A stretch of 64,000 nt of DNA from a virus: the IMG/VR virus record IMGVR_UViG_3300032401_000010, one strand, 5' to 3'. The translations under genes were made by a program, and so were the position numbers. Positions 4,433 through 61,716 of this stretch are shown piece after piece. Below the pieces are notes generated by a model. It ran no database searches. It was not told where the DNA came from and saw only the letters and a program-made list of their open reading frames with translations. The first letter of the stretch is position 1; every line of letters starts with the position of its first letter.

Positions 4433-4633
4433 TTATTTTATTTTTTCAATAGTAATAGAGTAAACATGTCCTAATTTATTTTTTACTTTTAAAATAGCTT
4501 GATACTGATTGTTAAAAACAACACTATTATTATCCTGAAACAAATCAATTAAATCATCAATAATCAAATCTGCATCAGCTTCTTGTGGCACAACAAGAGG
4601 ATGATTGGCAGCTACATACACAGTTTTATGCAT
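4433..4633 (-). CDS. hypothetical small protein
   Basis: 66-aa ORF. A TTGACA-N17-TATCTT promoter lies about 6 nt upstream of the ATG, giving a near-leaderless layout. Confidence 0.4.
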   Translation of the reverse strand: MHKTVYVAANHPLVVPQEADADLIIDDLIDLFQDNNSVVFNNQYQAILKVKNKLGHVYSITIEKIK

Positions 4634-4687
4634 GGTGCTAAGATAAGCATCTTCCTTAGAATGTCAAGCCCCTATTCAAATTAATAA

Positions 4688-5194
4688 TTATATTTCAACC
4701 AATTCTGTAAGAGCAACGAATAAATCTTCATAATCATCACATTTGCTCCAAAAATATTCTAAGCCAGCTAATTTTTCTACTCCAGCACAAACCATCAGAC
4801 GATCAAAAAGATTTGCATTAGACCACTTTGTTCCATCTGATTTTAAACAAAATTTACCATACATAGAATTTTTATCATGAACCAGATCTATTGCACTAGC
4901 AAAATAATCTAAACAAAGGCCATACAAAGTCGGAACTCCATCAAAACCAAAAACTACAATGAGATCATCTTCTATTGATGCGCAAATTGTTTTTATCTTG
5001 CCGTCATTAACAATCATTTGAGATGCATATACATTATATTTAGTAATTGTATTATCATATTGTATATCTAATGTTTTAGATATCAAAAAATTTTCTGCGG
5101 CTATTCCTTGTGTACCAAAAGATGATATTGGTATCATTCCGAAATTGCCCATTATAACTCGCACTAATTCTCTTCCTAAAATATCATGTGACAT
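4688..5194 (-). CDS. hypothetical protein
   Basis: 168-aa ORF; no motif. Confidence 0.45.
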   Translation of the reverse strand: MSHDILGRELVRVIMGNFGMIPISSFGTQGIAAENFLISKTLDIQYDNTITKYNVYASQMIVNDGKIKTICASIEDDLIVVFGFDGVPTLYGLCLDYFASAIDLVHDKNSMYGKFCLKSDGTKWSNANLFDRLMVCAGVEKLAGLEYFWSKCDDYEDLFVALTELVEI

Positions 5195-6512
5195 TTTGAT
5201 CCTTTACAATAATAAAAACTCCATAAGGATTTTTTTTAGCATATTTTGCCCAATGTTCCCTAGCCAAAAATATAACAGGAGCTTTTGGTTTTGGCGGGTA
5301 CGCACCAATATCCATATCGGAATAAAGTATTATCAAACTTGGTTTTAATTCAGAAGCCCGATTAAATGCGTCATGCATATCTGTGCCGCCACGACCAACA
5401 AATCTAACTTTTCGTTTTTTCAATTCATGTTTTATATTCTTTACTTTAATTACTTCATGAACAGTTGTGTCAGCAGTTATTAAAACTAAATTATCACAAA
5501 CAGAACCAAGTTTTTGCAAATGTCCCGAAGCATATTCAAACTCTACGCTATTCATAGAACCAGACGTATCAACAATTAATACTATCTTCGGAATGCTAGT
5601 TCCTTGCTCTCTTGGAATAAAAACATCAAACGGCAAATATTTAGGATCTGGTCGATACGGATTACGATCAGAATTTCCTTTTAAACATTCTTTAGCGAAC
5701 CTGATTAATACACGCTCAAATGGAACTTCTGATTTTTTAATTTGCTCTATATAATCTTCATAAAATCCAGGAAGTAATCCTCTTCCCATTCCTTTATGAC
5801 GAGCCGCCGCTTTAATTACTTCATCAATAATCTTTTGTTCATCAACTCCGTGAGGCATAGGAATTAAATCATTACCCCACGGCGCACCAAAATTTTCTAC
5901 CATCAATTGATTAATAGCTAATTCTCTATCTATTGGGCCAGTATGTTCTTTTGGAATTTCTTTCGAAACAGGTCTATTACAAGCCGGACACTTTGGACGC
6001 GGATCGTCGTCATCACAATATTCGTCATCTTGATGAAACTCTCTATTACAAATATGACAAAATGGAGTTATCTTTTTTTCTTGCCTTTTCTTTACTTCAG
6101 CATCTAAATCTTTATAAATTTGTTCAGCAGATTGTTCATTATAACAAGGATCATATAATCCAACAGGCATTTCAAATTGTTTAAGATCTTGAACAATCAT
6201 TGCATTAATGCTAAAATCACAGGCATAATTAAACGTCCTGTGTTTTCTAGTTTTTAATCTTTTAGAATGCAATAATGCTATGTGCAACCATTCATGCAAA
6301 GCAACAAACAATTTTTCTCTAAAATTCAGTTTATTCCATTTTTCAATACAAATAAAGATACATATCCCGTTTGTCGCAGCAAGAGGCCCCTTCGGACTAT
6401 TATTTATAATAATTGGCCAGGAAATTAATGGATATGTAAAAGGAGCTAATAATGCTAATGATGAAAATATTCTTTTAACTTCTTCTACATCTTTTTTATT
6501 ATCAGCATTCAT
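5184..6512 (-). CDS. vWA-domain protein with N-terminal HExxH metallopeptidase-like domain (DUF2201-like), partner of a MoxR ATPase
   Basis: Contains HEWLH (HExxH) near the N-terminus, a Cys-rich segment and a C-terminal vWA domain with an MIDAS-like DTSGSM motif. The adjacent gene is a MoxR AAA+ ATPase. Confidence 0.6.
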   Translation of the reverse strand: MNADNKKDVEEVKRIFSSLALLAPFTYPLISWPIIINNSPKGPLAATNGICIFICIEKWNKLNFREKLFVALHEWLHIALLHSKRLKTRKHRTFNYACDFSINAMIVQDLKQFEMPVGLYDPCYNEQSAEQIYKDLDAEVKKRQEKKITPFCHICNREFHQDDEYCDDDDPRPKCPACNRPVSKEIPKEHTGPIDRELAINQLMVENFGAPWGNDLIPMPHGVDEQKIIDEVIKAAARHKGMGRGLLPGFYEDYIEQIKKSEVPFERVLIRFAKECLKGNSDRNPYRPDPKYLPFDVFIPREQGTSIPKIVLIVDTSGSMNSVEFEYASGHLQKLGSVCDNLVLITADTTVHEVIKVKNIKHELKKRKVRFVGRGGTDMHDAFNRASELKPSLIILYSDMDIGAYPPKPKAPVIFLAREHWAKYAKKNPYGVFIIVKDQNVT

Positions 6513-6799
6513 AATCTCTTTTCAACCTCTTTATTATCTTTACCATCAATAAAAGGCTCGCATATATCCGATGCTTCTTGAACATATAATATTGCTCGAT
6601 TAATATGCATGCATGACTTATTTACTGCATCACTTAATTTTGTTTTTCCAAACATCTGATCACGAGCTGATTTACGTTCTAATTCAAGTAATATATAACT
6701 AAACAGCTTGGCTATACTGTCATATCTCATATTAGATATTTCAACGGCCAACTCCTTTAAAGAACCTTTGAAACCTTCTACAGTTAGAAATTCTCGCAT
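6509..6799 (-). CDS. hypothetical protein
   Basis: 96-aa ORF between the MoxR and vWA genes, with overlapping start and stop. Confidence 0.4.
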   Translation of the reverse strand: MREFLTVEGFKGSLKELAVEISNMRYDSIAKLFSYILLELERKSARDQMFGKTKLSDAVNKSCMHINRAILYVQEASDICEPFIDGKDNKEVEKRL

Positions 6800-6808
6800 T
6801 ATTTTCCA

Positions 6809-8138: not shown

Positions 8139-8939
8139 TCATTTTCCTAATTTAAGTTTGTGTCTTGTTCTGGTAACGCCGTCAAAATGATTTTGTTTAG
8201 CATTTAATGGTCGTAAATTATGTATAGACCAGCATTTTTTGAAATTTTCATGTTCCATTGAATCATAAGGCAAATCTGACTGAGGAATTATATGATCTAA
8301 TTGCCAAGTCCATGTTGAACTATCATTATCATTCCAGGTTTTTTTATTATATTTTCCTTGATTATTCCAATTCATCCATTGCTCAAACTTAGATTCTATA
8401 TGTTTTTTTATTTCATCTATATTTAAATAACATAACACAGAATGCTTTTTCTTTTGTGATAAACCATTTCTCTGTAAAGCAATTCTAACATAATTACTAA
8501 CGCCTAAACGCAATCTAAAATAGATATCATTTTTCTTGCGCTCTCTTATATGCTTTCTTCTCTTCTCTTTATTGCTTTCAATTTTATAATATTCTTTTTG
8601 ATAAAGAATAAATTTGTCTTTATTTTTTTTATAATATATTTGTTGTTGTCTTTTCCTTTCTTTTCTGTTTTTATTTAAACGCTTTTTAATCTTTTGTTTA
8701 TTTTTTTCATAATAAATATTACTTTTAATAGATAATTCTTTTTTATGAGAAGTTTTATATTTTTTTCTTATTAAACTAATATTTTCTATATTTTTTTTAT
8801 AATATTTTTGTTGTTTGTTACTAATGCATGTTTTACATTGTCTTCTATATCTATATTTATTTGCATAATTGCGTATTGAAAAATTATCAATATTTAATAA
8901 ATTTTTACATTTTGTGCATTTTAATTTATTTTCTTCCAT
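8139..8939 (-). CDS. HNH endonuclease, free-standing, with Cys4 N-terminus and Lys-rich low-complexity middle
   Basis: N-terminal CxxC...CxxC and a C-terminal HNH motif (LDHIIPQSDLP...N...NHFDG). Inserted between the MoxR and Rnl1-like genes. Confidence 0.6.
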   Translation of the reverse strand: MEENKLKCTKCKNLLNIDNFSIRNYANKYRYRRQCKTCISNKQQKYYKKNIENISLIRKKYKTSHKKELSIKSNIYYEKNKQKIKKRLNKNRKERKRQQQIYYKKNKDKFILYQKEYYKIESNKEKRRKHIRERKKNDIYFRLRLGVSNYVRIALQRNGLSQKKKHSVLCYLNIDEIKKHIESKFEQWMNWNNQGKYNKKTWNDNDSSTWTWQLDHIIPQSDLPYDSMEHENFKKCWSIHNLRPLNAKQNHFDGVTRTRHKLKLGK

Positions 8940-10889: not shown

Positions 10890-11300
10890 TTAACTGGTTT
10901 GACGAATAACCATTTGAGTATTCTTTATTATTGCTTCCATTACAGCTAATACATTTTTGATATCTTTTGTTTCTATATTTTCTATATTCGAAACAAGATG
11001 TTTAACGGCTTTCAAATGATCTTCTAAATGAATTAATGAATTATCGAGCTGCGTATCTGCCGCTATTGGTTCTTTTTGATATGCCGAATCCGCTTCTCTT
11101 CGTAATAAATTATATGAATCTTCAAATGCCGAACTCTTCCCAATCATTAACCCCCTAGCATATGATGTTTTATCTTCATCTTTGTCATACTCTTCTTTTG
11201 AGGCTTCCTGTAAAGATCTAATAAAACCAGCAACTTTGTTAAAAGTTTCGTGTTGATGTTGATATTGTTTTTTTGTTAATAACATCGATGGTGATATCAA
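10890..11300 (-). CDS. hypothetical protein
   Basis: 136-aa ORF. Direct repeats lie in the downstream intergenic region. Confidence 0.4.
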   Translation of the reverse strand: MISPSMLLTKKQYQHQHETFNKVAGFIRSLQEASKEEYDKDEDKTSYARGLMIGKSSAFEDSYNLLRREADSAYQKEPIAADTQLDNSLIHLEDHLKAVKHLVSNIENIETKDIKNVLAVMEAIIKNTQMVIRQTS

Positions 11301-11443
11301 TATAAGTCGGTCAAATCTTAAGTCAAGACGGAAACTTTATTCAATTTTTTATAGAAATTTATTCTATCATTGTTTAGTTATAATAATGTACAAGTATTAT
11401 AAAAATTACCTAATTTAACAGAAATTAGCACCGGAGAACGGCT

Positions 11444-14463: not shown

Positions 14464-14499
14464 ATGTGTTTTTATAATCTAACCATCCGCAACCGAATG

Positions 14500-14841
14500 T
14501 CAACCCCCTCTTTTTCTTTCTATAAAATAATTTTCGTAATAGAATGCTAGTTCTTTACCAGAAATATATGTCTCTACAACATTTGCTGCTACAATAAATG
14601 GATCATCTTCCGCCCTTACTGTTCTATTGAACAACCAAATTAGCCGGTGCCTTCTGTCTTCTGGCAGATTAGTATCGGCCTCAAATTTTTCTATTAAGAA
14701 CAAACCGATACAATACAAATCAATTGTACGTTGGTTTGCTCTCCATTGAGGAGGTTGCCCCTCTCTCATTTTTGCTTCGAACCTTGCTTTATGAGGCTCA
14801 AGTTCAAGTAGTAATTGTTCTTTATTATACAAATTGACCAA
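14500..14841 (-). CDS. hypothetical protein
   Basis: 113-aa ORF. Confidence 0.4.
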   Translation of the reverse strand: MVNLYNKEQLLLELEPHKARFEAKMREGQPPQWRANQRTIDLYCIGLFLIEKFEADTNLPEDRRHRLIWLFNRTVRAEDDPFIVAANVVETYISGKELAFYYENYFIERKRGG

Positions 14842-17932: not shown

Positions 17933-18561
17933 TCTCCTAATCCCATAAATTTAGTAAACTTTCTCGCGTAAATCTCGTCTTTTGCAGCATTTGATGAATA
18001 ATAGGAAATATAGGTTCCGAGTTGATCGCTTAGCATATGATACAGCTCATGAGAGAAAACTGTCCTGAATTCTGGGGTAAACACATCGTTACGAATATAA
18101 ATATAATCTTCCTCGCGGTCTACATATCCAAAAAAACTTAGCTCTTTTCCCTCTTCATTGTAGAATTTTGGGCGTGTTTTGAACCTAATATCATCGTTTA
18201 AGTTTCCCGGAGCCATTCCATCCTCATAGACGTTGTAAGGGATGATAGAAACAGATGCGTGAAAGGAGGTATTGAATGGTTCAGGCAACTGCTCTTCCTT
18301 TAGAAATTGAGGAAAGGCCTTAATTGCCGCTGTGCAAATCTCGGTAAGGCGTTTGATACCTAGTGCAGAGGGGCGGGTTCCAGAAAACTGTCCAGTACGC
18401 CATTCAAGAATTGTTAAATGACAAGCCGGAATTTCGATTTGAGTATTCAATCGCTGTTGTTCACTAGGAAATGTTAACGGATTAGCAAGCGCAGAGCTTG
18501 TAATGGTAATCAAAGCGGCGATAACAAATATAATGGTCTTCATATTTGTTAATTTAACCAC
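17929..18561 (-). CDS. secreted protein with HExxH motif (putative Zn-metallopeptidase)
   Basis: N-terminal signal peptide MKTIIFVIAALITITSSALA and the motif SHELYHM. Confidence 0.45.
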   Translation of the reverse strand: MVKLTNMKTIIFVIAALITITSSALANPLTFPSEQQRLNTQIEIPACHLTILEWRTGQFSGTRPSALGIKRLTEICTAAIKAFPQFLKEEQLPEPFNTSFHASVSIIPYNVYEDGMAPGNLNDDIRFKTRPKFYNEEGKELSFFGYVDREEDYIYIRNDVFTPEFRTVFSHELYHMLSDQLGTYISYYSSNAAKDEIYARKFTKFMGLGE

Positions 18562-18591
18562 GCCTTAGCTAAAGTCAAGGGCTCCATATGA

Positions 18592-18930: not shown

Positions 18931-19500
18931 TCAGGCGAGGATGTAGCGCGTCTTTCCCTTGGTTCCTTCACCGCGCACAGCACCTTCCTTTTTCATACCG
19001 TAAAGATACGTATTTAGCGTTCCCCCAGTAACAGGATTGCCCTGAGCAGCAAGTTTATCCTGAATGTCCGAAACACGAAGGCCTTCCTTACCGACGCTCT
19101 TCAAAATTGCTGAAATCTTACCCTTCCAATCTGGACGATTCTGGCTTTGAGCCTGAGCGGGCTCAGAAACACTCGGTTCATTCTGAGCCTTCGGAACCTT
19201 CGGAGCCTTCGGTGCCTTCGGAGCCTTTGACTCCTCTTCCTTCTTAGCATTCTTTGAGCCCTTGGGACGCCCGCGAGTCTTACCCGTGGTTGAAGGACTA
19301 AATGAACGAAGCGCAGAAACAAGCTTCTCTGCCTCAGAGGCAGCAATAGCCATGCGCTGCGTTGCCATAGAACGGAATTCCGGGTCTGTTTCGAAAAGAT
19401 CGGCAAGAACTGACAGTTGCGTAGCATTGAGTGACATTTGTTTTTTTTCCTTTGTGAGAGAGTGATTTGAGGCGCGTTTCGCCTTCAACAACATCAACAT
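18931..19500 (-). CDS. basic DNA-binding protein with AT-hook-like GRPKG, KAPKAPK repeats and a histone H1/H5-like winged-helix C-terminus
   Basis: GRPKGSKN AT hook, (KAP)n repeats, and a C-terminal segment ISAILKSVGKEGLRVSDIQDKL resembling a linker-histone globular domain. The gene sits in a locally GC-richer segment, with a hairpin-plus-T-tract terminator immediately downstream. Confidence 0.4.
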   Translation of the reverse strand: MLMLLKAKRASNHSLTKEKKQMSLNATQLSVLADLFETDPEFRSMATQRMAIAASEAEKLVSALRSFSPSTTGKTRGRPKGSKNAKKEEESKAPKAPKAPKVPKAQNEPSVSEPAQAQSQNRPDWKGKISAILKSVGKEGLRVSDIQDKLAAQGNPVTGGTLNTYLYGMKKEGAVRGEGTKGKTRYILA

Positions 19501-19547
19501 AACCCATCTTAAGCTTATGTCAACTAGCTTTGGCTGTTTTTTTAGAA

Positions 19548-21533: not shown

Positions 21534-21556
21534 GCCGTCATGATAAGGATGGCGAA

Positions 21557-21835
21557 CTAAATGTCAAGCGGCTCGTCGTCCTCGTCCAATGAATGCCACC
21601 CGTTATACACAGATGAACCAGCCCAAATCTGATCTTCTTGTCCTTGCGACTTTAATTCGTATATTATTTCTTTTTGCATAGTTTCAAATAATTCAAATAT
21701 AGATTTCCAACGCGCTAATACATCATCGCTAACCTCAATTACAGGATAACAGCTTTCGTCATATAGCGATTCGTGAACTTCATATACCGGAAAAGCTTCT
21801 CTTCCATATATAGATACTTTCATTTGAAACTCCAA
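21557..21835 (-). CDS. hypothetical small acidic protein
   Basis: 92-aa ORF. Confidence 0.4.
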   Translation of the reverse strand: MEFQMKVSIYGREAFPVYEVHESLYDESCYPVIEVSDDVLARWKSIFELFETMQKEIIYELKSQGQEDQIWAGSSVYNGWHSLDEDDEPLDI

Positions 21836-25823: not shown

Positions 25824-26037
25824 CGTTTGCTTATATCTAGTATAGCCATTTCCTTAGAAAAGTCAAGGAGTTAGGCGTTAAAAAGTGGTTGGCTGTGCTT
25901 CGGAAGGGGGAAATCCTACAACACTTTTGCGCTCAGGGGAATGAGGCTGGGCCTGCCAACCAAGGCCAAGTTTTTAACTGTCTTGCTGTATCAGTTGATA
26001 TACAAACAATTTATTTTTTTAGGTTCATTGAGTTATT

Positions 26038-28835: not shown

Positions 28836-31055
28836 CTACCCAACTAGTTTAACCACGTCTGCCGAAAAGTCAAGTCCATTCGCTGCGTCCACAGCGTTAA
28901 TATAGTCGATAAGCGCCTTCTTGCCGACGTTATCGCTGCGAATTACCCACAAATCGATAAATCTGAGCAAAGAATACTTTGTAGTTACAACATTATGCAA
29001 CTTACAAAGATCAGTGTTATTGGCATCAGTCTTTTTTTCTATCTTACGACCTTCAACAAGATCTACGATAGCAATGATATCAGCAGACTCTTTGGATGAT
29101 TTATCTACTAGCTTAAGCTCGGAGATATATTTGCTCATCGGACTGTCTTCATGGAGCTTGCTCAAAAACTCAGTAACAAGCTTGATCATCATATCTTCTA
29201 AACGGAACCGCGATGCACTCTCAATATCGGCTCGCAGCTTATCGATATCCTCAAGCTGTTTAATTTCGTCCACCTTTTCCTGCAACACAACATGCAGTGG
29301 ACGCCAGTTCTTACCAAGGAACTTCTTGTCGGACTCACGCACCCCAATAATAGGATCATCATCGCCAAGAATTGTCTGAGCAAGACGAAGGTTTTCGATA
29401 GTATAGGAATGATTATTATCGGAAGACGGTTTACCCTTATTGTTACCATGGAGCATAACATATGTTCCAGAACCACCATTCTTAATAAGAGTATGTGGCT
29501 CCCAATGATTATCACATTTGCGATTGCTTCTATATGAAAGATCAAATATAAAGCCGTCGAAATCTTCACGACGCTTTGCTCGCTCAAGCTTCTTTCTATC
29601 ACGAATCTCTTTCGGAATGTGAACAACAGAAATGCGGTCATCACAGATTAGGGTTATGTCAAACCCAATATCAACTCCCGAACTACTCTTAGCATTGCGC
29701 CAACGTTCAATACCGGCTTCAACGTTGCCATCAGCGAATGTAATAACCTGAACTTGTTTAATGGCCTTATCAGCAAGAATGATCTTAATGCGATCATGAG
29801 AAACACGTTCGGTAGTAAGATCATTGAAGTAAATGATGCTTTCGTCAGCAACCACTAACTTTGATTCTTGTTTTTTGCTCAAATATTCATTATATTTGCG
29901 ACCCTTTTGCATAAAAAAACTATAAACACTAACGCCAATATCACCAGGAAGATTGAACACAATGTTCTTTACACTGTGACCGTTCCACAACGGGTTAAAA
30001 TTATTCGGCAAAGCACATGCTAGTGTATTGCAAAACTTGTTATAGTAAAGAACTGCGTCCCAATACGATTCATTATTCTCAATTTTCTGCTGAAGATTGA
30101 TGGCAATTTCATTACGGGCCTTCTCAAGCTTACCCAGAATTTGTGCCTGCGTCTTATCATCATACTGAAGCTGTTCTCTGTTGGCCGAAGGTGTAAGTTC
30201 GCCAATATTGAAATACAATCTTAGTTTCTTTGAAAGAAGATCTCTATCCTTAGTAGAAATATTACGAATATGATTAATGTTAATTGGATAACTCATGCCA
30301 TCCAAAATGATTTTTGCAAGGCTATTATAACCATAATTCTCTCTATTACTAGAAGAATACAGCTTCCAATCATCACCTTGCAAAACATCAGCGCCTTCGA
30401 TTTCCCATGCCGGAAGGGGATCGAGTCCGGTCAGAATGGGCCTAACACTATTTGGAACATCATCCCAATATTGAGTTGCAGCAATGGTAGCCGCAATGAA
30501 TGACTGGATATCTCGCTGTTCTACAGGAACGCTAATCTCGGTTCCGCAAGGCTCTGAGGTTTCAGATTCATATACAAGGCGAAGAGAACCTTGCTCAGAT
30601 TCATCAATGTGGGCAATGTATGCTCGCTTGATATTTACCCCGGTTTCGTTTGTGATAGTAACGATTGAAAACTGATTGGTTTTAGCGAATGGCGTCTTAC
30701 TTCCAAGCCCAAAACCACCAGTCTGAATATTATCGTTTCGCTTAGTAGATTGTCCATATCCAAGGTAAACATTCTCAATAATATCAGGAGTGATACCAGG
30801 ACCAAAATCCCTTACCTTCCAATTCCTATCAAGGATGTTTGGAAGATGAATCTGGATAGGCTTATCATTCCCTACTACACGATGAGCATCCCGTGCATTA
30901 CAAGTAATTTCGCGACAGATAGCATTGATAGGATCCGAATACAACATCTCCCGAAGGATCTTCATGACCATCCCGAGATTACCAATACGGAAAGACGACT
31001 GCTTGAGAGTTTGCCCGCCCATTTCAATGTGGCTGTTATTGTCTTCGATTTTCAT
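28836..31055 (-). CDS. GHKL (HSP90/histidine-kinase-like) ATPase protein, rIIA-like
   Basis: N box EITCNARDAH, G1 box DFGPGI and G2 box GGFGLGSK. Length 739 aa, close to T4 rIIA. A good TTGACA-N16-TATTCT promoter and an AGGAG site lie upstream. Confidence 0.55.
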   Translation of the reverse strand: MKIEDNNSHIEMGGQTLKQSSFRIGNLGMVMKILREMLYSDPINAICREITCNARDAHRVVGNDKPIQIHLPNILDRNWKVRDFGPGITPDIIENVYLGYGQSTKRNDNIQTGGFGLGSKTPFAKTNQFSIVTITNETGVNIKRAYIAHIDESEQGSLRLVYESETSEPCGTEISVPVEQRDIQSFIAATIAATQYWDDVPNSVRPILTGLDPLPAWEIEGADVLQGDDWKLYSSSNRENYGYNSLAKIILDGMSYPININHIRNISTKDRDLLSKKLRLYFNIGELTPSANREQLQYDDKTQAQILGKLEKARNEIAINLQQKIENNESYWDAVLYYNKFCNTLACALPNNFNPLWNGHSVKNIVFNLPGDIGVSVYSFFMQKGRKYNEYLSKKQESKLVVADESIIYFNDLTTERVSHDRIKIILADKAIKQVQVITFADGNVEAGIERWRNAKSSSGVDIGFDITLICDDRISVVHIPKEIRDRKKLERAKRREDFDGFIFDLSYRSNRKCDNHWEPHTLIKNGGSGTYVMLHGNNKGKPSSDNNHSYTIENLRLAQTILGDDDPIIGVRESDKKFLGKNWRPLHVVLQEKVDEIKQLEDIDKLRADIESASRFRLEDMMIKLVTEFLSKLHEDSPMSKYISELKLVDKSSKESADIIAIVDLVEGRKIEKKTDANNTDLCKLHNVVTTKYSLLRFIDLWVIRSDNVGKKALIDYINAVDAANGLDFSADVVKLVG
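28846..28873 (-). promoter_or_regulatory. sigma70-like promoter (TTGACT-N16-TAAACT) inside the 3' end of the rIIA-like gene, driving the rIIB-like gene
   Basis: Minus-strand read: TTGACT-TTTCGGCAGACGTGGT-TAAACT, then AGGAGAAAC and the ATG. Confidence 0.5.
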
Positions 31056-40989: not shown

Positions 40990-41034
40990 TGGACTCTCCT
41001 GTGTTTCTGAAACTTAAGGCGTAATTTGGAAAAA

Positions 41035-42297
41035 TCAAGGGCTTTTTATCACTTTTGGTACGATTGGGATCGAAGAAAGAATTCTAAATACTTCTTTATA
41101 AATCTTTTGTTTTGTAGCATATTTAATTTCTTTTATAACAAACAAATTTATGCCAAGCTCTTTACATTTAAGATATTTAAATTCATCTCTTTCTTGTTGA
41201 GATTTTACAGAATCTGTAGTACTTTTAAATATTGGAACAACATTATAATGTTGTGCTCCGTTATATTCAAACGCCATATTTAATTCAGCACAATATCCAT
41301 CAAGCTCAAGATTGTAATTTGTTTTTGGGCTCTTTAGCCAGCTTGGTCTAATTTTATGAAATTTGTTACCAAGTATATTCTCAAACGCAGATCTGCAATA
41401 TCCTTCTGCTGTATGTTCTATACATATTGGACACCACCCTCCTCTTTTTACAGCATCTGGAACAGCGCTCCATGTGTGTTCTTTTTTACATTGCCATAAT
41501 AATTTAGTTTTCGCATTTATATATTCTTTAGATAAACATAAACCATCTCGTTTGGCTGCTATTAAATTCATTTCTTCTATAGATAGTTTGTTTTTTCCAA
41601 AGCAATTTGGGCACCAATGTCCTTTTTTAACATTAGTAATTAAAGCAAACCATTCATAATTACAAAGACCGCATTGCCATTTTAGTTTTTTACTAGCTTT
41701 TTGATATTTTGAAAGACATTTTCCGCCACGTTTTTCTGCAAGTTTAATAGCTATTTCATTACAAGTTTTGCCAGAACATATTGGGCACCAACTACCATTT
41801 ATAATTGTATCTGGTAACGCTGTCCATTTATGCGACAAACCACACTGCCATTTATACAATGATCTTGTAGAACAAAATTCATTCGAAATAAGTTTTCCAC
41901 CTTTTTCTTCAGCTAAATTTTGTAATGATATTAATTTTTCTAATTTGATACATTCGTGACACCATCTATTTCTATTAACTTCAGCAATACTTTTAATAAA
42001 AATATGATTTCTTTTACAAGACCATACTATTTTTTTTAAATTATCAAAATTAATAATATTACCACCAAAACTTAATGCTAATTTATTTATTTTGTTATAA
42101 ATTATTTTTCTTCGTATATCTGTTTTGCATTTGCTGCACCAATGTTTCTGTCTAATATAATTGGCGTTTGCCAACCATCTGTGACCATTAGCGCATTCCC
42201 ATTCTAAAAGAGAAGAGTCGTTTTTATATTCTGTTGAAAGGCACTTCCCGTCATATTTTTCTACTTGGTTTTGTAATAATTCAATAGTTATTTTCAT
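41035..42297 (-). CDS. zinc-ribbon repeat protein (five W-x-C...W-C-x2-C repeats) with C-terminal nuclease-like domain
   Basis: Repeats such as YKWQCGLSHKWTALPDTIINGSWCPICSG. C-terminal segment LELDGYCAELNMAFEYNGAQHY. Confidence 0.5.
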   Translation of the reverse strand: MKITIELLQNQVEKYDGKCLSTEYKNDSSLLEWECANGHRWLANANYIRQKHWCSKCKTDIRRKIIYNKINKLALSFGGNIINFDNLKKIVWSCKRNHIFIKSIAEVNRNRWCHECIKLEKLISLQNLAEEKGGKLISNEFCSTRSLYKWQCGLSHKWTALPDTIINGSWCPICSGKTCNEIAIKLAEKRGGKCLSKYQKASKKLKWQCGLCNYEWFALITNVKKGHWCPNCFGKNKLSIEEMNLIAAKRDGLCLSKEYINAKTKLLWQCKKEHTWSAVPDAVKRGGWCPICIEHTAEGYCRSAFENILGNKFHKIRPSWLKSPKTNYNLELDGYCAELNMAFEYNGAQHYNVVPIFKSTTDSVKSQQERDEFKYLKCKELGINLFVIKEIKYATKQKIYKEVFRILSSIPIVPKVIKSP

Positions 42298-43659: not shown

Positions 43660-43686
43660 TATAATCTAAACACTCGGATCGAAAAG

Positions 43687-44349
43687 TCAAGTCCCTAAAG
43701 CCAGTTTATTGCGCACTATCTCTTTAGATCTCCAATGATCATCCGTTTGCACATGATTTTTTCTTACCAACTTACTAACACTTGAGGCGAACGCAGAATC
43801 TTCAAATCCATAAACTAAACGAACTACAACGCCCTCTCTTTCCGGACCATAAAAAGAAGGCTGTTTCATAAATGATTCGGTAATTCTTTGTAGTTCTTTT
43901 TCCGTTTTAACTGTAATGTTAGCCAATTCTGGAACAGTATATAAGCCAAGTTTATTCGCCGTTTCTTTTACACCGTTCCAGCCTAACCAATAATGAATAT
44001 TTGGTTCAGTATTTATTATTCTTACTCCGAACATAAGAAAATAAGCAGGAAGTTTATCGTAAAAAATCGAATGTTTAGCTGCTACCCATTCTCCGAAAAT
44101 TTGCATATTTATTGGTATATTATGTTTTATAGAAGTATGCAAAGTTTTAAATTCATTAAAGGAAGGATGATTTGGTGGTCCCGAATGAGTACGAGCATAA
44201 CAACTATCATGCTGTAAACATACGTTACTTCCGTCTATTTTTTCTAATAGAACAAGTTCATGTCCCAAAAATGAATCTACAGATGATAAAATTTTGTCAT
44301 CTGATGTTCCGCTACTCCAAGGTAAATGAAAAGTTCTGGGATATTTCAT
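43687..44349 (-). CDS. RNA ligase-family nucleotidyltransferase (small Rnl2-like, KxDG)
   Basis: N-terminal MKYPRTFHLPWS and motif I LLEKIDGSNVCL. Confidence 0.55.
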   Translation of the reverse strand: MKYPRTFHLPWSSGTSDDKILSSVDSFLGHELVLLEKIDGSNVCLQHDSCYARTHSGPPNHPSFNEFKTLHTSIKHNIPINMQIFGEWVAAKHSIFYDKLPAYFLMFGVRIINTEPNIHYWLGWNGVKETANKLGLYTVPELANITVKTEKELQRITESFMKQPSFYGPEREGVVVRLVYGFEDSAFASSVSKLVRKNHVQTDDHWRSKEIVRNKLALGT

Positions 44350-44973: not shown

Positions 44974-45003
44974 GGTTTTAATTTAACTCACCTAAAGCAA
45001 AAG

Positions 45004-45774
45004 TCAATAGCCAAAAGCTTTTAATTCTTCATCAGATATAGGAATTGGTATGCGATCAGATCTTCCTACAGTTCCTTCTTTAATTGGAATAGCTTTAAGT
45101 TTGATTCCCAAAAATTCTGATAATTTATTTAATGTATCTTCTTGATGAAGAACAAAATCTTCGAATTTAATATGAATAAAATTCTTTGGCTTGGGAGTTG
45201 CTGCTACTATTTTCATTTGATACAGCCAGCTTTCTACCCTTCGTTTTAATATATTTGGTTCGTAACTTAATTTTGTACGCACATTAAACGAAAAAATATT
45301 ATCAGTAAGATGAGCTTTTAATAAAGCGTCCCGTGGATCCCTAGTCCAATGTATATAATAAGCATCAGGAAACATTTGCGTAATCCAAGGATAACATAAA
45401 TTAGTTTCCGGTAATTTCCATCCACGATCCCCATTATGAGTTAATATATTAAGAAGATATTTATTTACTAAAATTTTAAATAAGATTGTTGGCTCTTCTT
45501 TAATTAACTTAGAGAAGTTCCAATCATTAATACATATAGATTTTACATAGGCGCCAGCAATTCTAGCAGCGTGATACATATGCCTTGCAGGAACTAAATC
45601 CCCTGAATCATTTGTGGTGCCCATATAAACACCACTCTCAGATAGAGTTTGACTTATGGCTCTAGTGCCGCCATGCCCTCTTCCAATTACTATTATTAGT
45701 TTCAAGTCTTTATTAAAATAGTTATATAGAAGATTTGTTATTTTCAGAAGGCTTGTTGCTTTCGAAAAATTCAT
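45004..45774 (-). CDS. hypothetical protein (weak P-loop/sulfotransferase-like GRGHGGT motif)
   Basis: 256-aa ORF. Confidence 0.4.
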   Translation of the reverse strand: MNFSKATSLLKITNLLYNYFNKDLKLIIVIGRGHGGTRAISQTLSESGVYMGTTNDSGDLVPARHMYHAARIAGAYVKSICINDWNFSKLIKEEPTILFKILVNKYLLNILTHNGDRGWKLPETNLCYPWITQMFPDAYYIHWTRDPRDALLKAHLTDNIFSFNVRTKLSYEPNILKRRVESWLYQMKIVAATPKPKNFIHIKFEDFVLHQEDTLNKLSEFLGIKLKAIPIKEGTVGRSDRIPIPISDEELKAFGY

Positions 45775-47112: not shown

Positions 47113-47130
47113 TCTTCCAACTTAAATTTA

Positions 47131-47158
47131 ATATAAGACCCGATTTTGAATTGTCAAG
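47131..47158 (-). promoter_or_regulatory. sigma70-like promoter (TTGACA-N16-TATATT) for the GC-island gene
   Basis: Minus-strand read: CTTGACA-ATTCAAAATCGGGTCT-TATATT, then GGAAGA and the ATG. Confidence 0.5.
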
Positions 47159-51331: not shown

Positions 51332-51415
51332 GCAAACAACAGAAATGCCGTAATCAAATTAGTGATTATCAGAATCAGGTACAATGTAGTAACGCCTATC
51401 TAAAAGTCAAGAGCA

Positions 51416-53069: not shown

Positions 53070-53132
53070 ACTATAGATATATAATTTTATTGGTTTTTAA
53101 TTAATAATATTTTCTACTCAACCAGTTATATG

Positions 53133-53570: not shown

Positions 53571-53644
53571 ATTTGTTATTACACTTTCACGTAGTTTAAT
53601 ATATTACATTGTCTTTTTAAGACCTGTTGTTGAAAAAATACTAG

Positions 53645-54020: not shown

Positions 54021-54674
54021 CTAATCCTTAGTAAACAAAAAAGCTTTTACTTTATATCCGCAAGCATCTGAAATCATCATAAAATCTTCTATAGAAACAT
54101 CTCCTCTATTCTTTTCTGACCTTTCTACAATTATAGCAGCGTCAATAATGGAACAGTTTCTTTGCGCTGCTACCCTATCAACTAGCTGTCCTTGCGTTAA
54201 CCCAGCTAATAGTCTAACACATTTAACTGGGGTGTCAAGGTCTAAATGAGCCTCACCTAGAAGACGCTCGGTCGTGGGTGTTACAATTTTTGTCGTGGGC
54301 GTTACAATTGTTTTATATTCCGTTTCATATAGTTGTGCTTTATAATAAAATTCTTCTGATGAATAACCTATCCATTTATCTCGCCGTTTGATAATTTCGG
54401 TCCCTATTTCTTCTAGGGTGCCAACAATATCGTCCCCTCCATTTTCTGTACACCATGCAATATGATGTGAGCGAATGCCATAAAGATTTATATCAGGTCC
54501 GCAATCTACCCATGGATTAACATCTGGTGAAAGATGAAGTCCGCTTTTTTCACAACTCAATATAATTTCTGCATGCTCATCACAGCAAGCAAAGATAGCA
54601 CGAGTTAGAAGTCTTTTGGTAGCCGGTTTACCACATAGAGTTAGTTCGCCAGGCCCGCTACAAATGGTTTTCAT
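54021..54674 (-). CDS. putative transcriptional regulator with C-terminal HTH (XRE-like)
   Basis: HTH segment VRLLAGLTQGQLVDRVAAQRNCSIIDAAIIVERSEKN, plus an internal TIVTPTTKIVTPTT repeat. Confidence 0.45.
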   Translation of the reverse strand: MKTICSGPGELTLCGKPATKRLLTRAIFACCDEHAEIILSCEKSGLHLSPDVNPWVDCGPDINLYGIRSHHIAWCTENGGDDIVGTLEEIGTEIIKRRDKWIGYSSEEFYYKAQLYETEYKTIVTPTTKIVTPTTERLLGEAHLDLDTPVKCVRLLAGLTQGQLVDRVAAQRNCSIIDAAIIVERSEKNRGDVSIEDFMMISDACGYKVKAFLFTKD

Positions 54675-55935: not shown

Positions 55936-56156
55936 TGGTCTTGTCCTTTTGTTACTATAACTACGTTTAGGAAAATGTCAAGCTCCGGCCTTAACTTTAA
56001 AATAAATCATTTGCATAAATTCTTTTAGCCAATGCCATTAATTCTTTTTTAAATCTATAGAAGCTATCATCTTTTCATAAAATGTTTCTATTTCTTTTCT
56101 AGATAAAAAATTGTGTGGAGGAAGCTGAAGACCAACCGGAGTATAATCCTCGACCA

Positions 56157-60101: not shown

Positions 60102-60123
60102 AGGAAATTGTTAACCTCTGTGG

Positions 60124-60684
60124 TTACAGATTATCTCCCCAAGCTAATATTCTTGGGGCGGTAGGCGAGTAATTAAGCATTAACTCTTCAAGGCCTCGCA
60201 AGTTCAAACCTTCAAAGAACACTTCGCGTACTGCGTCTTCGCCAAATCTATAATAGTCTTTAGGATAACGATGCACTTGTAACACAGAGCGACTTTGTTC
60301 AACGAAAGCTGGAACGCCAATAACTATATGGCCTTTTAACACACGCTTCATCTCAGCTAATGTTTTCCAGAAAGCCGGGTCATGTTCTAATACACTATTA
60401 CACAATACTAGATCGAAATAACCGTCTGGCCAAGGAAGGTCATGTCCGGTTCCTAATTGTATTGACCAGCCTTTATGACCAGGCCAAATAGGTAGTGCTT
60501 TATCTCCCCATCCTCCCCATCCTAGTTGTTCAGGATCTGGATTAATACCAACACATTGTGCTTCAGAAAACTTAGGCAATGTAAGGAGATTGTCGGATCT
60601 GGTTGCTCCAACCTCAAGAACTTTGACTGGATTTGGTAGACCGTCAACTATTTTGGAGATAGCCTCTCTAATTACATGATGCAT
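60124..60684 (-). CDS. class I SAM-dependent methyltransferase
   Basis: Motif I VLEVGAT and post-II DLVLCNSVLEH. Confidence 0.6.
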   Translation of the reverse strand: MHHVIREAISKIVDGLPNPVKVLEVGATRSDNLLTLPKFSEAQCVGINPDPEQLGWGGWGDKALPIWPGHKGWSIQLGTGHDLPWPDGYFDLVLCNSVLEHDPAFWKTLAEMKRVLKGHIVIGVPAFVEQSRSVLQVHRYPKDYYRFGEDAVREVFFEGLNLRGLEELMLNYSPTAPRILAWGDNL

Positions 60685-61298
60685 TATGCTGGTACTAACT
60701 GTCCTTTGTTCTTGATAATATTTTTCATAATGCCAATCATTCTATTTTTACTATTTCCTTTAAACATATTCATTGCCAATAATTCTTTTGTGCTATTTGC
60801 GTGATAACCACCTTTTCCTTTTTCAAAAGCAATTTCTATAAGAGCCAATTGTGATTTAGAAAAATATGATTTCAAAAAATAATCAAGATGATCTTGATCA
60901 AATGAACCTGATGCCGTCTCTCCAGATCTATCATATAGTGAACCGTGTATCCCTTCTAGATCTCCGAAAGTAATTTTATTAAATCGCCTAACTCCACAAA
61001 CGAACAATGCTCCAAGCGCACAAACATTACATTTAACATTTTTAATGGTGGCGCTTATTTCAGTATTATTAATGGTGTCGTTACCATCATAATATGAAAT
61101 CATTGTTTCACGATCAAATAATGGATTCTCAGACTCACACCACACTCCATTTTGAGAACGAATTGTTTTCTGTTCCAAAGCAGCAATAACATCCTTTGCA
61201 ATCATAATCCGCTTTTCAGCAGCGGTAGCCTTCTTGAACTTGGCGTTCTTCTTAACAATTTTGTTTTTCTGTGTTGTAGCTTTTTTAATAGTTGTCAT
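60684..61298 (-). CDS. hypothetical protein, paralog of 39303..40046
   Basis: Shared AEKR-IAKDV and C-x-CALG motifs with the other copy. Confidence 0.5.
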   Translation of the reverse strand: MTTIKKATTQKNKIVKKNAKFKKATAAEKRIMIAKDVIAALEQKTIRSQNGVWCESENPLFDRETMISYYDGNDTINNTEISATIKNVKCNVCALGALFVCGVRRFNKITFGDLEGIHGSLYDRSGETASGSFDQDHLDYFLKSYFSKSQLALIEIAFEKGKGGYHANSTKELLAMNMFKGNSKNRMIGIMKNIIKNKGQLVPA

Positions 61299-61678
61299 GA
61301 TGATTTGTTCCTCAGCAGATCTGTCATTACGTGATTCTTGAAAAACGTTATCGTATCTCTTGTAGACTTAAATGATTTGAATGTAATTTTCGGTTTGCCA
61401 ATTACATCAGATTTTTTTACGTCATTAACATTTATTATTTCGACAGTTGTATATCTATTTAAGATAGACAGTATTTCTTTTCTAGCTTCTTCGGTTATGC
61501 ATAACACTCTAACCTTATCAGATATAAAACATCCAGCAAATCCATTAATATGTTTTATTTTCAAAACAATACGATCTTTAAAAGGCCGAAGCTTATCTAT
61601 TTTAGATTGAGCCTTATTAAAAGATTTACGATCTATTGTTGGTAAGCTTTCCTTCTTTTTGCTATCACAAACAAACAT
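61295..61678 (-). CDS. hypothetical protein
   Basis: 127-aa ORF with a TTGACT-N16-TATGCT element 6 nt before the ATG. Confidence 0.4.
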   Translation of the reverse strand: MFVCDSKKKESLPTIDRKSFNKAQSKIDKLRPFKDRIVLKIKHINGFAGCFISDKVRVLCITEEARKEILSILNRYTTVEIINVNDVKKSDVIGKPKITFKSFKSTRDTITFFKNHVMTDLLRNKSS

Positions 61679-61716
61679 AGCTATAGCATAATCACGTCAT
61701 ACGAAAAGTCAAGCGG

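What the first reader, a model, noticed from the sequence alone, without database searches (positions are those of the whole stretch)
4633..61712. Recurring promoter motif CTTGACTTTT-N13-TAnnnT, often about 6 nt from the start codon (near-leaderless)
The motif AAAAGTCAAG or ATGTCAAG on the plus strand (reverse complement CTTGAC(T/A)TTT) recurs at least 15 times immediately upstream of minus-strand genes. A TAnnnT hexamer follows at 16-17 nt spacing every time checked. Examples are about 4663, 18910, 21562, 25861, 28868, 31097, 43685, 45002, 47153, 51405, 55976 and 61707. In at least four cases (4633, 43659, 44973 and 61678 starts) the -10 element ends only 3-6 nt before the ATG or GTG with no ribosome-binding site, implying leaderless mRNAs. 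Others (28820, 31055, 47112, 55935) have about 20-nt leaders with AGGAG-like sites. This is a conserved, probably early, host-RNAP promoter class with two translation-initiation modes, and a ready-made handle for mapping this phage's transcriptional programme.
Basis: seen in the sequence. Interest (0 to 1): 0.6.

Follow-up and report, generated by a model that had tools for sequence, protein, structure and literature searches.

The report
Phage promoter class with leaderless starts
An uncultivated giant phage carries at least 17 near-identical copies of a standard bacterial promoter in front of its early-looking genes, and in six cases the promoter sits so close to the gene that the mRNA should begin at the start codon itself; this is a clear example of a known arrangement, not a new kind of system.

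Summary
TTGAC-N17-TAnnnT occurs 18 times against 3.1 expected, always on the minus (gene) strand. Seventeen of these sites form a sharply separated class. The hexamer spacer is always 16 nt.

All 17 sites lie at gene boundaries and point the way the genes run. One drives tRNA-Thr. A relative with about 83% protein identity keeps all six promoters of the shared region: -35 identical at 42/42 positions, spacer 64%. Core-only scans of 77 kb of unseen related DNA found 20 sites on the gene strand and 2 on the other.

The leaderless reading is supported and is wider than claimed. The start codon lies exactly 6 nt after the -10 element at five genes (61678, 44973, 43656, 21533, 4633) and 7 nt after it at 18543. 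Homologues confirm four of these start positions.

The best explanation is a set of strong promoters for a primary-sigma host RNA polymerase in a T4/SPO1-style early gene block, part of which yields leaderless mRNAs. The host, the timing and the actual 5' ends are untested. This is a new member of a known kind, of moderate interest.

The parts
63411..63438 (-). Promoter (-35 TTGACT, 16-nt spacer, -10 TATGAT). The next long ORF starts at ATG 63356, 54 nt after the -10 element. The stop codon of the upstream ORF lies inside the -10 element.
61685..61712 (-). Promoter (TTGACT-16-TATGCT). ATG 61678 lies exactly 6 nt after the -10 element, so a leaderless mRNA is predicted for the 127-aa ORFan 61295-61678.
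55954..55981 (-). Promoter (TTGACA-16-TATAGT). ATG 55935 is 18 nt after the -10 element. The short leader carries a weak AAGGA.
51383..51410 (-). Promoter (TTGACT-16-TACATT) followed by a 127-nt leader before the AAA-ATPase gene (ATG 51255). The leader is conserved in the relative L015.
47130..47157 (-). Promoter (TTGACA-16-TATATT). ATG 47112 is 17 nt after the -10 element.
44980..45007 (-). Promoter (TTGACT-16-TAAATT). The TGA inside the -35 element is the stop codon of the upstream gene. GTG 44973 lies 6 nt after the -10 element, so a leaderless GTG start is predicted. The whole intergenic region is 30 nt.
   Evidence: a homologue starts at the same codon with ATG
43663..43690 (-). Promoter (TTGACT-16-TAGATT). 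The TGA inside the -35 element is the upstream stop codon. GTG 43656 lies 6 nt after the -10 element (ATG 43659 lies at 3 nt). A leaderless start is predicted.
   Evidence: the GTG is kept at 6 nt in L017 and at 8 nt in L101
31075..31102 (-). Promoter (TTGACA-16-TATTCT) in front of the rIIA-like gene. ATG 31055 is 19 nt after the -10 element, with AGGAG 8 nt before the ATG.
28846..28873 (-). Promoter (TTGACT-16-TAAACT) inside the last codons of the rIIA-like gene. ATG 28820 is 25 nt after the -10 element.
25839..25866 (-). Promoter (TTGACT-16-TATACT). ATG 25823 is 15 nt after the -10 element and has no SD. The site is retained in L011.
21540..21567 (-). Promoter (TTGACA-16-TATCAT). ATG 21533 lies 6 nt after the -10 element, so a leaderless mRNA is predicted for the 516-aa gene.
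   Evidence: L011 has a 17-nt spacer but still 6 nt to the ATG; the M-T start is shared by a 49%-identical homologue
19496..19523 (-). Promoter (TTGACA-16-TATGTT) just after a strong terminator (19588-19556). The true start is ATG 19437, 58 nt after the -10 element. The leader is conserved in L011 and differs by indels.
18551..18578 (-). Promoter (TTGACT-16-TAAATT). ATG 18543 lies 7 nt after the -10 element, so the mRNA is leaderless or has a 1-nt leader. The same 7-nt gap is found in L011.
14476..14503 (-). Promoter (TTGACA-16-TAGATT). The mature 5' end of tRNA-Thr (14463) lies 12 nt after the -10 element. The TGA inside the -35 element is the upstream stop codon.
11299..11326 (-). Promoter (TTGACT-16-TATATT). 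ATG 11285 lies 13 nt after the -10 element (12 nt in L011), giving a leader of about 6-7 nt with no SD.
4640..4667 (-). Promoter (TTGACA-16-TATCTT). ATG 4633 lies 6 nt after the -10 element, so a leaderless mRNA is predicted for the 66-aa ORFan.
4396..4423 (-). Promoter (TTGACA-16-TATTGT). The downstream start is uncertain: GTG 4375 at 20 nt, or ATG 4258 as chosen by gene callers.
41011..41038 (-). Probable weaker member (TTGATT-16-TAAGTT, with the GC block and the TTT after the -35 element). ATG 40989 is 21 nt after the -10 element, preceded by AGGAG.
54211..54238 (-). Doubtful site (TTGACA-16-TAGACT, 13.6 bits) inside gene 54674-54021, about 245 nt upstream of an intron-containing tRNA.

Best explanation
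These are strong promoters read by an RNA polymerase holoenzyme that carries a primary (group 1, sigma-70/sigma-A type) sigma factor. That polymerase is most likely the host's own.

The promoters are spread through a long block of co-directional genes, mostly ORFans and auxiliary-metabolism genes, in an uncultivated jumbo phage. They would let the phage capture host polymerase on entry, as the early promoters of T4 and SPO1 do.

Each site has a -35 TTGACW, a fixed 16-nt spacer and a -10 TAnnnT. Further conserved positions are a G/C-rich block ending in C just upstream of the -35 element, TT just after it, T-n-S-T just before the -10 element, and a purine just after it.

Transcription is inferred to start at about the 7th nucleotide after the -10 element. 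At six genes that nucleotide is the A or G of the start codon, or lies one nucleotide before it. Those mRNAs would then have no 5' leader and would be translated by direct ribosome binding to the 5'-terminal start codon. Seven other sites give leaders of only about 6-19 nt (one of them is a 6-nt tRNA leader). Three give long leaders.

Shown here: the motif, its statistics, its placement and its conservation. Inferred: which polymerase reads it, the start sites, the timing, and leaderless translation.
For: Enrichment and strand. The core motif occurs 18 times against 3.06 expected, all on the gene strand, and only at this spacing. Seventeen sites stand clear of the background.

Placement. The -10 element of 16 of 17 sites lies within 60 nt upstream of a gene or tRNA start. 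That zone makes up 8.5% of the window (P about 1e-16). One site drives tRNA-Thr.

Generalisation. In 77 kb of related DNA outside the window, a core-only search found 20 sites on the gene strand and 2 on the other. The flanking preferences were not used for selection and they recur: C at -1 in 12/20, T at +6 in 16/20, T before the -10 element in 16/20, a purine after it in 17/20. The 5 nt upstream of the -35 element are 27-28% A+T against 63% for the genome, both in the window set and in the new set.

Conservation. L011 comes from a 231-kb contig and shows 83% protein identity. It keeps all six promoters of the shared region. Identity is 42/42 in the -35 element, 37/42 in the -10 element, 64% in the spacer and 57% in the 6 nt after the -10 element.

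Leaderless geometry. Five starts lie exactly 6 nt after the -10 element and one lies at 7 nt. The chance of five or more at one given distance is 6e-6.

Confirmation of the start codons.
- 21533: the 6-nt gap survives a change of spacer to 17 nt in L011, and a 49%-identical homologue also begins M-T.
- 44973 (GTG): a 78%-identical homologue starts at the same codon with ATG, 4 nt after the upstream stop codon.
- 43656 (GTG): the GTG is kept at 6 nt in L017 and at 8 nt in L101, and the first residues are conserved as protein, K[VI]L[KE]xLQG.
- 18543: the 7-nt gap is kept in L011 while the intervening bases change.

Context. SD use in the window is low, 26 of 96 starts. This suits a host that translates without SD pairing. 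No sigma or RNA polymerase domain appears in the precomputed Pfam lists of the neighbouring loci or in my own scans.
Against: There are no 5'-end data, and neither host nor phage is in culture. The start sites, the timing and the polymerase are therefore inferred from the canonical geometry of sigma-70 promoters.

Only about 100 kb of a genome that may reach 230-420 kb has been seen. A phage-encoded sigma factor or RNA polymerase elsewhere cannot be excluded.

Two of the six leaderless candidates use GTG. From my own knowledge, not checked here, 5'-terminal GUG is translated poorly in E. coli.

The invariant 16-nt spacer is one nucleotide shorter than the E. coli optimum of 17 (own knowledge). 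The class also has a G/C-rich block where T4 and RB49 early promoters have A/T-rich UP elements.

A 49%-identical relative (L014) has ordinary 17-18-nt-spacer promoters and stronger SD sites instead.

The leaderless genes could also be translated from read-through transcripts that start upstream.
Confidence: 0.8

Rival explanations
1. The sites are promoters, but a phage-encoded sigma-70-family factor or a phage-modified polymerase reads them, not the unmodified host holoenzyme. They would then be a middle or continuous class rather than immediate-early.
For: The consensus carries information beyond the two hexamers: an invariant 16-nt spacer, a G/C block at -41 to -37, and T at -13. This could reflect a specialised recognition factor. 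Only part of a genome of up to 230-420 kb was seen. From my own knowledge, huge phages often encode sigma factors.
Against: The hexamers are the textbook primary-sigma consensus. Alternative sigma factors usually recognise clearly different motifs (own knowledge). No sigma or RNA polymerase domain was found in about 100 kb of window and neighbouring DNA. The gene content matches what T4 and SPO1 express from host-polymerase early promoters: ORFans, an rIIA-like gene, ligases and tRNAs.
Confidence: 0.1
2. The promoters are real, but the 'leaderless' genes are not translated from 5'-terminal start codons. Either they are translated from longer read-through transcripts by SD-independent internal initiation, or their true start codons lie downstream. 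The 6-nt geometry would then be a side effect of genome compaction.
For: Most genes in the window lack SD sites and have A-rich upstream regions, so internal SD-independent initiation must be common in this system. Strong terminators are few, so read-through is likely. Gene callers disagree on the start of 43177-43659, giving products of 160, 156, 150 and 144 aa. The L015 homologue lacks the first eight codons.
Against: Compaction does not predict one exact distance. Five starts lie at 6 nt and one at 7 nt, which puts the purine of the start codon at the canonical +1. The distance is kept in relatives while the intervening bases, and even the spacer length, change. Start positions are confirmed by homologues for 21533, 44973, 43656 and 18543.
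Confidence: 0.2
3. The repeated roughly 34-nt unit works mainly, or additionally, as a recombination cassette that shuffles ORFans between genomes, like the PeSL elements of RB49/phi1. This reading does not exclude promoter activity.
For: The sites flank ORFans. Their presence differs between relatives: L011, L015 and L103 have sites the window lacks, and in L015 and L018 the homologues of two promoter-fed window genes have no promoter. PeSL elements are sigma-70-consensus early promoters that mediate such shuffling (PMC2839356).
Against: No stem-loop accompanies the sites (mean folding z-score +0.2 over 17 sites), and the stem-loop is half of the PeSL definition. Only about 20 of 34 positions are conserved, which gives little continuous homology. 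No minicircle or junction evidence can be obtained here.
Confidence: 0.15
4. The matches are chance occurrences of an A/T-rich consensus in a 38% G+C genome.
For: A loose sigma-70 consensus scan finds 66-90 sites per 20 kb, no more than in shuffled sequence.
Against: The specific class is 6-fold to more than 100-fold enriched, lies entirely on one strand, is specific to one spacing, sits at gene boundaries and is conserved in relatives.
Confidence: 0.01

Closest known systems
T4 early promoters (host sigma-70 'uber' promoters; Hinton 2010, PMC2988021)
   Same: Both are many near-consensus -35/-10 promoters that carry extra conserved positions beyond the hexamers. Both are spread through co-directional blocks of small, mostly non-essential early genes and tRNAs, and both are thought to out-compete host promoters for RNA polymerase. 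The window also has an rIIA-like gene, ligases and tRNAs.
   Different: T4 early promoters combine an A/T-rich UP element, a -35 element, TGn and a -10 element. Here the canonical TGn is absent (the 'TG before second hexamer' flag reads 'no' for all 17 sites). The 5 nt upstream of the -35 element are G/C-rich. The spacer is fixed at 16 nt. A third of the sites abut the start codon.
PeSL elements (early promoter plus stem-loop cassettes) of T4-type phages RB49/phi1 (PMC2839356)
   Same: Both are about 50 copies per genome of a sigma-70-consensus early promoter, located mostly in hyperplastic regions directly upstream of ORFans. In both, presence or absence differs between close relatives (here).
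   Different: PeSLs include a stable, often polyG/polyC stem-loop, an A/T-rich upstream tract and an SD site before the ATG. Here there is no stem-loop, there is a G/C block upstream, and there is often no leader at all.
SigA-type promoters predicted to give leaderless mRNAs in Cluster O mycobacteriophages (PMC4351075)
   Same: [quoted passage not shown]
   Different: Those are G+C-rich actinophages of a host phylum where leaderless mRNAs are the norm, with 8-9 promoters per genome. Here the phage is a 38% G+C jumbo phage of unknown, probably non-actinobacterial host, with at least 17 sites in 64 kb.
SPO1 host-takeover module early promoters (PMC6873191 and Stewart et al. 1998, cited there)
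   Same: Both are clusters of small early genes in short operons, each with its own strong host-sigma promoter.
   Different: SPO1 genes carry strong ribosome-binding sites typical of Firmicutes. Here SD use is low and several mRNAs would have no leader.
Transcription maps of the jumbo phages phiKZ and AR9 (PMC8244752, PMC5312081)
   Same: These are large phages whose early promoters were defined as repeated motifs.
   Different: phiKZ and AR9 use their own RNA polymerases and non-sigma-70 motifs. No leaderless transcripts were found in phiKZ, and AR9 5' UTRs measure 26-491 nt.

Membership tests
Primary-sigma (sigma-70/sigma-A, group 1) -35/-10 promoter | -35 hexamer close to TTGACA | tested here: met
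   TTGAC is invariant, and the sixth base is A or T, in 17/17 sites.
Primary-sigma (sigma-70/sigma-A, group 1) -35/-10 promoter | -10 hexamer TAnnnT, with A at position 2 and T at position 6 | tested here: met
   17/17 sites. This was partly a selection criterion, but the enrichment over shuffles and the strand bias are independent of it.
Primary-sigma (sigma-70/sigma-A, group 1) -35/-10 promoter | Spacer of 16-18 nt between the hexamers | tested here: met
   The spacer is 16 nt in all 17 window sites. One orthologue in L011 has 17 nt.
Primary-sigma (sigma-70/sigma-A, group 1) -35/-10 promoter | Located upstream of genes and co-oriented with them | tested here: met
   All sites are on the gene strand. 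Sixteen of 17 have the -10 element within 60 nt upstream of a start.
Primary-sigma (sigma-70/sigma-A, group 1) -35/-10 promoter | Transcription initiates about 7 nt downstream of the -10 element and depends on the holoenzyme | not testable with these tools
   This needs 5'-end mapping or in vitro transcription.
Leaderless mRNA | [quoted passage not shown] | tested here: inconclusive
   The geometry fits: 6 nt between the -10 element and the start codon at five genes and 7 nt at one, conserved in relatives. No start site has been measured.
Leaderless mRNA | The annotated start codon is the real one | tested here: met
   Confirmed by homologues for 21533, 44973, 43656 and 18543. No divergent homologues were available for 61678 and 4633. 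Gene callers in other assemblies chose the same ATG for both.
Leaderless mRNA | 5'-terminal AUG, the requirement known from E. coli (own knowledge) | tested here: inconclusive
   Four of the six use ATG. Two use GTG (44973, 43656). From my own knowledge, 5'-terminal GUG is tolerated in mycobacteria but is translated poorly in E. coli. The host is unknown.
T4-type early 'uber' promoter (UP/-35/TGn/-10) | Extended -10 TGn immediately upstream of the -10 hexamer | tested here: not met
   The 'TG before second hexamer' flag reads 'no' for all 17 sites. A weaker T-G-S-T lies one position further upstream.
T4-type early 'uber' promoter (UP/-35/TGn/-10) | A/T-rich UP element adjoining the -35 element | tested here: not met
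   The 5 nt upstream of the -35 element are 27% A+T against 63% for the genome. There is only a mild A/T rise (72%) at 16-25 nt upstream.
PeSL cassette (RB49/phi1) | Stable stem-loop associated with the promoter | tested here: not met
   The mean folding z-score of the 17 regions (-40 to +34 relative to the first base of the -35 hexamer) is +0.2, and no hairpin recurs.
PeSL cassette (RB49/phi1) | Sigma-70-consensus promoter directly upstream of ORFans, variable between relatives | tested here: met
   The genes next to the promoters have no Pfam or PHROG function. The set of sites differs among the window, L011, L015, L103 and L018.

The most novel reading that the evidence does not exclude
The phage may use minimal stop-promoter-start junctions as a systematic device. 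In two cases the junction is exactly 30 nt, with the TGA inside the -35 hexamer ending the upstream gene and +1 being the A or G of the next start codon. Such junctions would launch leaderless early mRNAs, including GUG-initiated ones, in a host from a phylum that uses few SD sites. Planctomycetota or Verrucomicrobiota is weakly suggested by the nearest homologues of the phage NAD synthetase (NadE). If so, the extended 34-nt consensus (G/C clamp, invariant 16-nt spacer, T at -13) would be the first read-out of the optimal promoter of that host's RNA polymerase. The phage would also be the first jumbo phage whose takeover programme relies on leaderless translation.
Probability: 0.25. Interest if true: 0.6.

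Novelty: new member of a known kind. Interest (0 to 1): 0.4.

Why it matters
The class gives a usable, testable map of transcription units for an uncultivated jumbo-phage lineage whose contigs reach 231-420 kb.

The weight matrix finds new sites in DNA it was not trained on. It could therefore delimit the early region in complete genomes of this lineage.

The strict 6-nt geometry at six genes is an unusually clean sequence-only prediction of leaderless mRNAs outside the actinophages. Combined with the low SD use, it narrows the kind of host to look for.

The promoters should be strong and compact parts for expression work if they function in a tractable host.

None of this overturns current understanding. 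Host-type early promoters and leaderless phage mRNAs are both well known.

Tried and rejected
**Identifying the phage**
- Megablast of 43000-47000 against the phage collection gave no match.
- tblastn with the ligase and the rIIA-like protein found only relatives at 32% identity or less.

**Finding relatives**
- Two scans of viral contigs, one of metagenome contigs and one of genome contigs with phage proteins found no relatives.
- All relatives came from protein look-ups instead.

**Bacteroidota-type promoters (TAnnTTTG)**
- There were 102 matches against 77 expected, with no strand or intergenic bias. I rejected this as a promoter signal here.

**PeSL-type stem-loops and terminators joined to the promoters**
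- None were found. Strong terminators are few.

**Generic sigma-70 consensus scan**
- It was not enriched over shuffles. Only the specific class is informative.

**The -35 TGA doubling as the upstream stop codon**
- This occurs at 3 of 17 window sites and at several sites in relatives. That is roughly what reading-frame chance gives, so I treat it as compaction and not as a designed feature.

**Host inference from NadE homologues**
- The best bacterial matches are all about 50-54% identical. Planctomycetota and Verrucomicrobiota MAGs predominate, mixed with Myxococcota, Acidobacteriota and Cytophagales. This is only a weak hint.

**ATG 19500 as a start inside the -10 element of site 19523**
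- Rejected. Comparison with L011 shows indels in that stretch and a conserved ATG at 19437.

Full report
**What the window is**

Nearly all long ORFs lie on the minus strand, and G+C is about 38%. No phage in the reference collection is similar at the DNA level. The best protein matches reach only about 30% identity. They include an rIIA-like protein and an NAD-dependent DNA ligase.

Pfam finds NAD synthase, a transglycosylase, a kinase-like protein, RNA ligases, an AAA ATPase and a sulfotransferase. There are two tRNAs.

Identical or near-identical proteins occur only in metagenome assemblies. Relatives sit on contigs of 113, 131 and 232 kb, and one search lists one of 420 kb. The window therefore comes from an uncultivated jumbo phage. 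Its content resembles the early and auxiliary regions of T4-like or SPO1-like phages.

**Check of the observation**

The motif is far above chance:
- CTTGACWTTT occurs 8 times against 0.77 expected.
- TTGACWTTT-N13-TAnnnT occurs 9 times against 0.07 expected.
- The core TTGAC-N17-TAnnnT occurs 18 times against 3.06 expected, and all 18 are on the minus strand.
- With one more spacer nucleotide the count drops to 1 against 3.34 expected.

An alignment of the 17 best sites shows information outside the two hexamers:
- C directly before TTGAC in 13/17 sites
- G or C at the two positions three and four nucleotides before the hexamer
- TT after TTGACW in 16/17 and 14/17 sites
- T-n-S-T directly before TAnnnT, with T at the last position in 15/17 sites
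- a purine directly after the -10 element in 17/17 sites

A weight matrix built from these sites gives 17 hits at 21 bits or more and two at 10-14 bits. Nothing on the plus strand reaches 8 bits. A scan that lets the spacer vary finds no further strong site, so the 16-nt spacer is invariant in the window.

There, TTGACA runs straight into a terminator hairpin (18908-18883) and no -10 element follows at the right distance. A generic sigma-70 scan is not enriched over shuffles. Only this specific class carries signal.

**Placement**

On my gene map, 10% of the window is intergenic. All 17 sites lie at gene boundaries and point the way the genes run. In 16 of 17 the -10 element lies within 60 nt upstream of a gene or tRNA start, a zone that makes up 8.5% of the window (P about 1e-16).

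One site lies directly in front of tRNA-Thr, with 12 nt between the -10 element and the mature 5' end. In relatives, sites of the same kind precede tRNA-like sequences in L011 and L015.

The arrangement is very compact. At 45007, 43690 and 14503 the TGA inside TTGAC is the stop codon of the upstream gene. Two intergenic regions are exactly 30 nt, that is, nothing but promoter.

**Independent support**

The matrix finds new sites in DNA it was not trained on:
- four in the 7.5 kb beyond the right end of the window (L001)
- three beyond the left end (L103)
- several each in L011, L015 and L017

When 77 kb of such DNA is searched with the core alone, 20 sites fall on the gene strand and 2 on the other. 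The flanking preferences reappear even though they were not used for selection. The G/C-rich block upstream of the -35 element is 27% A+T in the window set and 28% in the new set, against 63% for the genome.

L011, at about 83% protein identity, keeps all six window promoters of the shared region. Identity is 42/42 in the -35 element, 37/42 in the -10 element, 64% in the spacer and 57% in the six nucleotides after the -10 element. This is the pattern expected for a functional two-block element.

A more distant relative (L014, 49% identity) lacks the class. It has ordinary 17-18-nt-spacer TTGACA/TAnnnT candidates and stronger SD sites.

**Leaderless starts**

The number of nucleotides between the -10 element and the start codon is:
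- 6 nt: 61678 (ATG), 44973 (GTG), 43656 (GTG), 21533 (ATG) and 4633 (ATG)
- 7 nt: 18543 (ATG)
- 12 nt: the tRNA
- 13-25 nt: seven genes
- 54, 58 and 127 nt: three genes

Five or more starts at one given distance has a probability of about 6e-6 under a uniform 0-60 nt model. In canonical promoters the -10 hexamer spans -12 to -7, which is established knowledge. A 6-nt gap therefore puts the purine of the start codon at +1.

The start codons are supported as follows:
- **21533.** L011 has a 17-nt spacer and different intervening bases but the same 6-nt gap. The 49%-identical homologue in L014 also begins M-T.
- **44973 (GTG).** A 78%-identical homologue begins at the same codon with ATG, 4 nt after the upstream stop codon and without a promoter.
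- **43656 (GTG).** L017 keeps GTG at 6 nt although the ATG at 3 nt is gone. L101 keeps GTG at 8 nt. The first residues are conserved as protein. The L015 homologue lacks these eight codons, so this case is the least certain.
- **18543.** The 7-nt gap is kept in L011.
- **61678 and 4633.** Only near-identical variants were available, and gene callers chose the same ATG.
- **11285.** This ATG is conserved at 13 nt in the window and 12 nt in L011, with only synonymous changes after it and unrelated sequence before it. The leader would be 6-7 nt, with no SD.
- **L011 8632.** The relative also has a further 6-nt case at a gene of its own.

**Translation context**

Only 26 of 96 predicted starts have even a 4-nt SD-like core at a workable distance. 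Many starts are preceded by A-rich tracts. The lack of an RBS is therefore general in this genome. The argument for leaderless mRNAs rests on geometry and conservation, not on a missing RBS.

Low SD use together with leaderless signals has been reported for Planctomycetes, Chlorobi, Bacteroidetes and Cyanobacteria (PMC5397173). The phage NAD synthetase is closest (50-54%) to proteins of MAGs that are mostly Planctomycetota and Verrucomicrobiota. This is a weak hint about the host and nothing more. Bacteroidota-type promoter motifs show no strand or position bias here.

**Mechanism**

The most likely reading is a class of strong promoters for a primary-sigma holoenzyme, probably the host's. They would be used from the start of infection to express many short operons of ORFans and auxiliary genes. 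About a third of the transcripts would begin at or next to the start codon.

The motif, its placement and its conservation are shown. The polymerase, the start sites, the timing and the mode of translation are inferred.

I found no sigma or RNA polymerase domain in the window or in about 40 kb of extra neighbouring DNA. Most of the genome is unseen, so a phage-encoded factor remains possible.

**Comparison with known systems**

- **T4 early promoters.** They share the idea of a better-than-host consensus with extra conserved positions (PMC2988021). The T4 hallmarks TGn and an adjoining A/T-rich UP element are absent here.
- **PeSL cassettes of RB49/phi1.** They share the sigma-70 consensus, the association with ORFans and the variable presence between relatives (PMC2839356). 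Their defining stem-loop is absent here.
- **Cluster O mycobacteriophages.** Predicted SigA promoters whose +1 coincides with the first codon are described there (PMC4351075).
- **phiKZ and AR9.** These jumbo phages with mapped transcripts use their own polymerases. phiKZ showed no leaderless mRNAs, and AR9 5' UTRs measure 26-491 nt.

The finding is therefore a new member of known kinds. Its particular traits are the fixed 16-nt spacer, the G/C clamp and the frequent leaderless geometry.

**Verdict**

Novelty is modest and interest moderate (0.4). The main value is a ready promoter model and a set of sharp, testable predictions for an uncultivated jumbo-phage lineage.

Noticed in passing
window 53644-53990 (minus strand); intron 53719-53967: A group I intron (Rfam RF00028, 60.1 bits, E 1.2e-14) interrupts what looks like a long-variable-arm tRNA. 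The 5' exon begins GCCACGGTGGCGAAACCGG. The 3' exon ends GGGAGTTCAAGTCTCCCCCGTGGCA. ARAGORN and the Rfam gathering-threshold scan both missed this tRNA.
   Followed up: partly
window 18857-18866, 23575-23584 and 53072-53081 (minus strand); 8846-8855 (plus strand): A second short motif, TATATCTATA, occurs exactly three times on the gene strand, each time just upstream of a start codon (18852, 23549, 53069). It may mark a second promoter class, perhaps middle or late. The statistics are weak: with one mismatch allowed there are 16 matches against 9.25 expected.
   Followed up: partly
window 51256-51382 (minus strand); L015 860-1008: The leader of about 125 nt between promoter 51410 and the AAA-ATPase gene is conserved in a relative with only 57% protein identity. 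The block CCATCTTTGCA.TTTAAAA.TAAACA.TGGGC is nearly invariant. This could be a regulatory 5' UTR. The L015 copy of the AAA gene also carries an intein domain.
   Followed up: partly
window 18883-18908 and 19556-19588 (minus strand): These are the only two strong intrinsic-terminator hairpins in this part of the window. The one at 19588-19556 (15-bp stem followed by a T run) lies directly upstream of promoter 19523.
   Followed up: no
window, all minus-strand gene starts: SD use is low: 26 of 96 starts have a core of 4 nt or more. Many starts follow A-rich tracts such as aaaacaa. This suggests a host that initiates translation largely without SD pairing.
   Followed up: partly
window 34809-36734: The nearest bacterial homologues of the phage glutamine-dependent NAD synthetase (50-54% identity) are mostly from Planctomycetota and Verrucomicrobiota MAGs. 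This is a weak hint about the host lineage.
   Followed up: partly
window 63340-63405 (minus strand): A possible 20-codon ORF (MKRALPKTKTLKKEKSNDRN) starts 5 nt after the -10 element of promoter 63438 and overlaps the start of gene 62850-63356. It could be a leaderless leader peptide.
   Followed up: no
window 24987-25073 and 22578-22633 (minus strand): Two intergenic repeats were seen: a GTGTGTACGTGTGTG-type tract before gene 24168-24986, and a direct repeat TGATTACTATTTATATTGAA (two copies) before gene 21855-22577.
   Followed up: no
L102 against L103, beyond window position 1 (locus coordinates about 13830 onward): Two near-identical strains diverge completely about 2 kb past the left end of the window. 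L103 continues with co-directional genes and three more promoter sites. L102 switches to opposite-strand genes (peptidase, glucosaminidase, RNA ligase, AAA) and has none. This suggests a hyperplastic region.
   Followed up: partly
window 63412-63693, compared with L001 7895-8152 and L005/L006: The small gene upstream of promoter 63438 exists as an 85-aa variant that stops at the TGA inside the -35 hexamer, and as a 93-aa variant that stops at the TGA inside the -10 hexamer. The variants occur in different assemblies.
   Followed up: no
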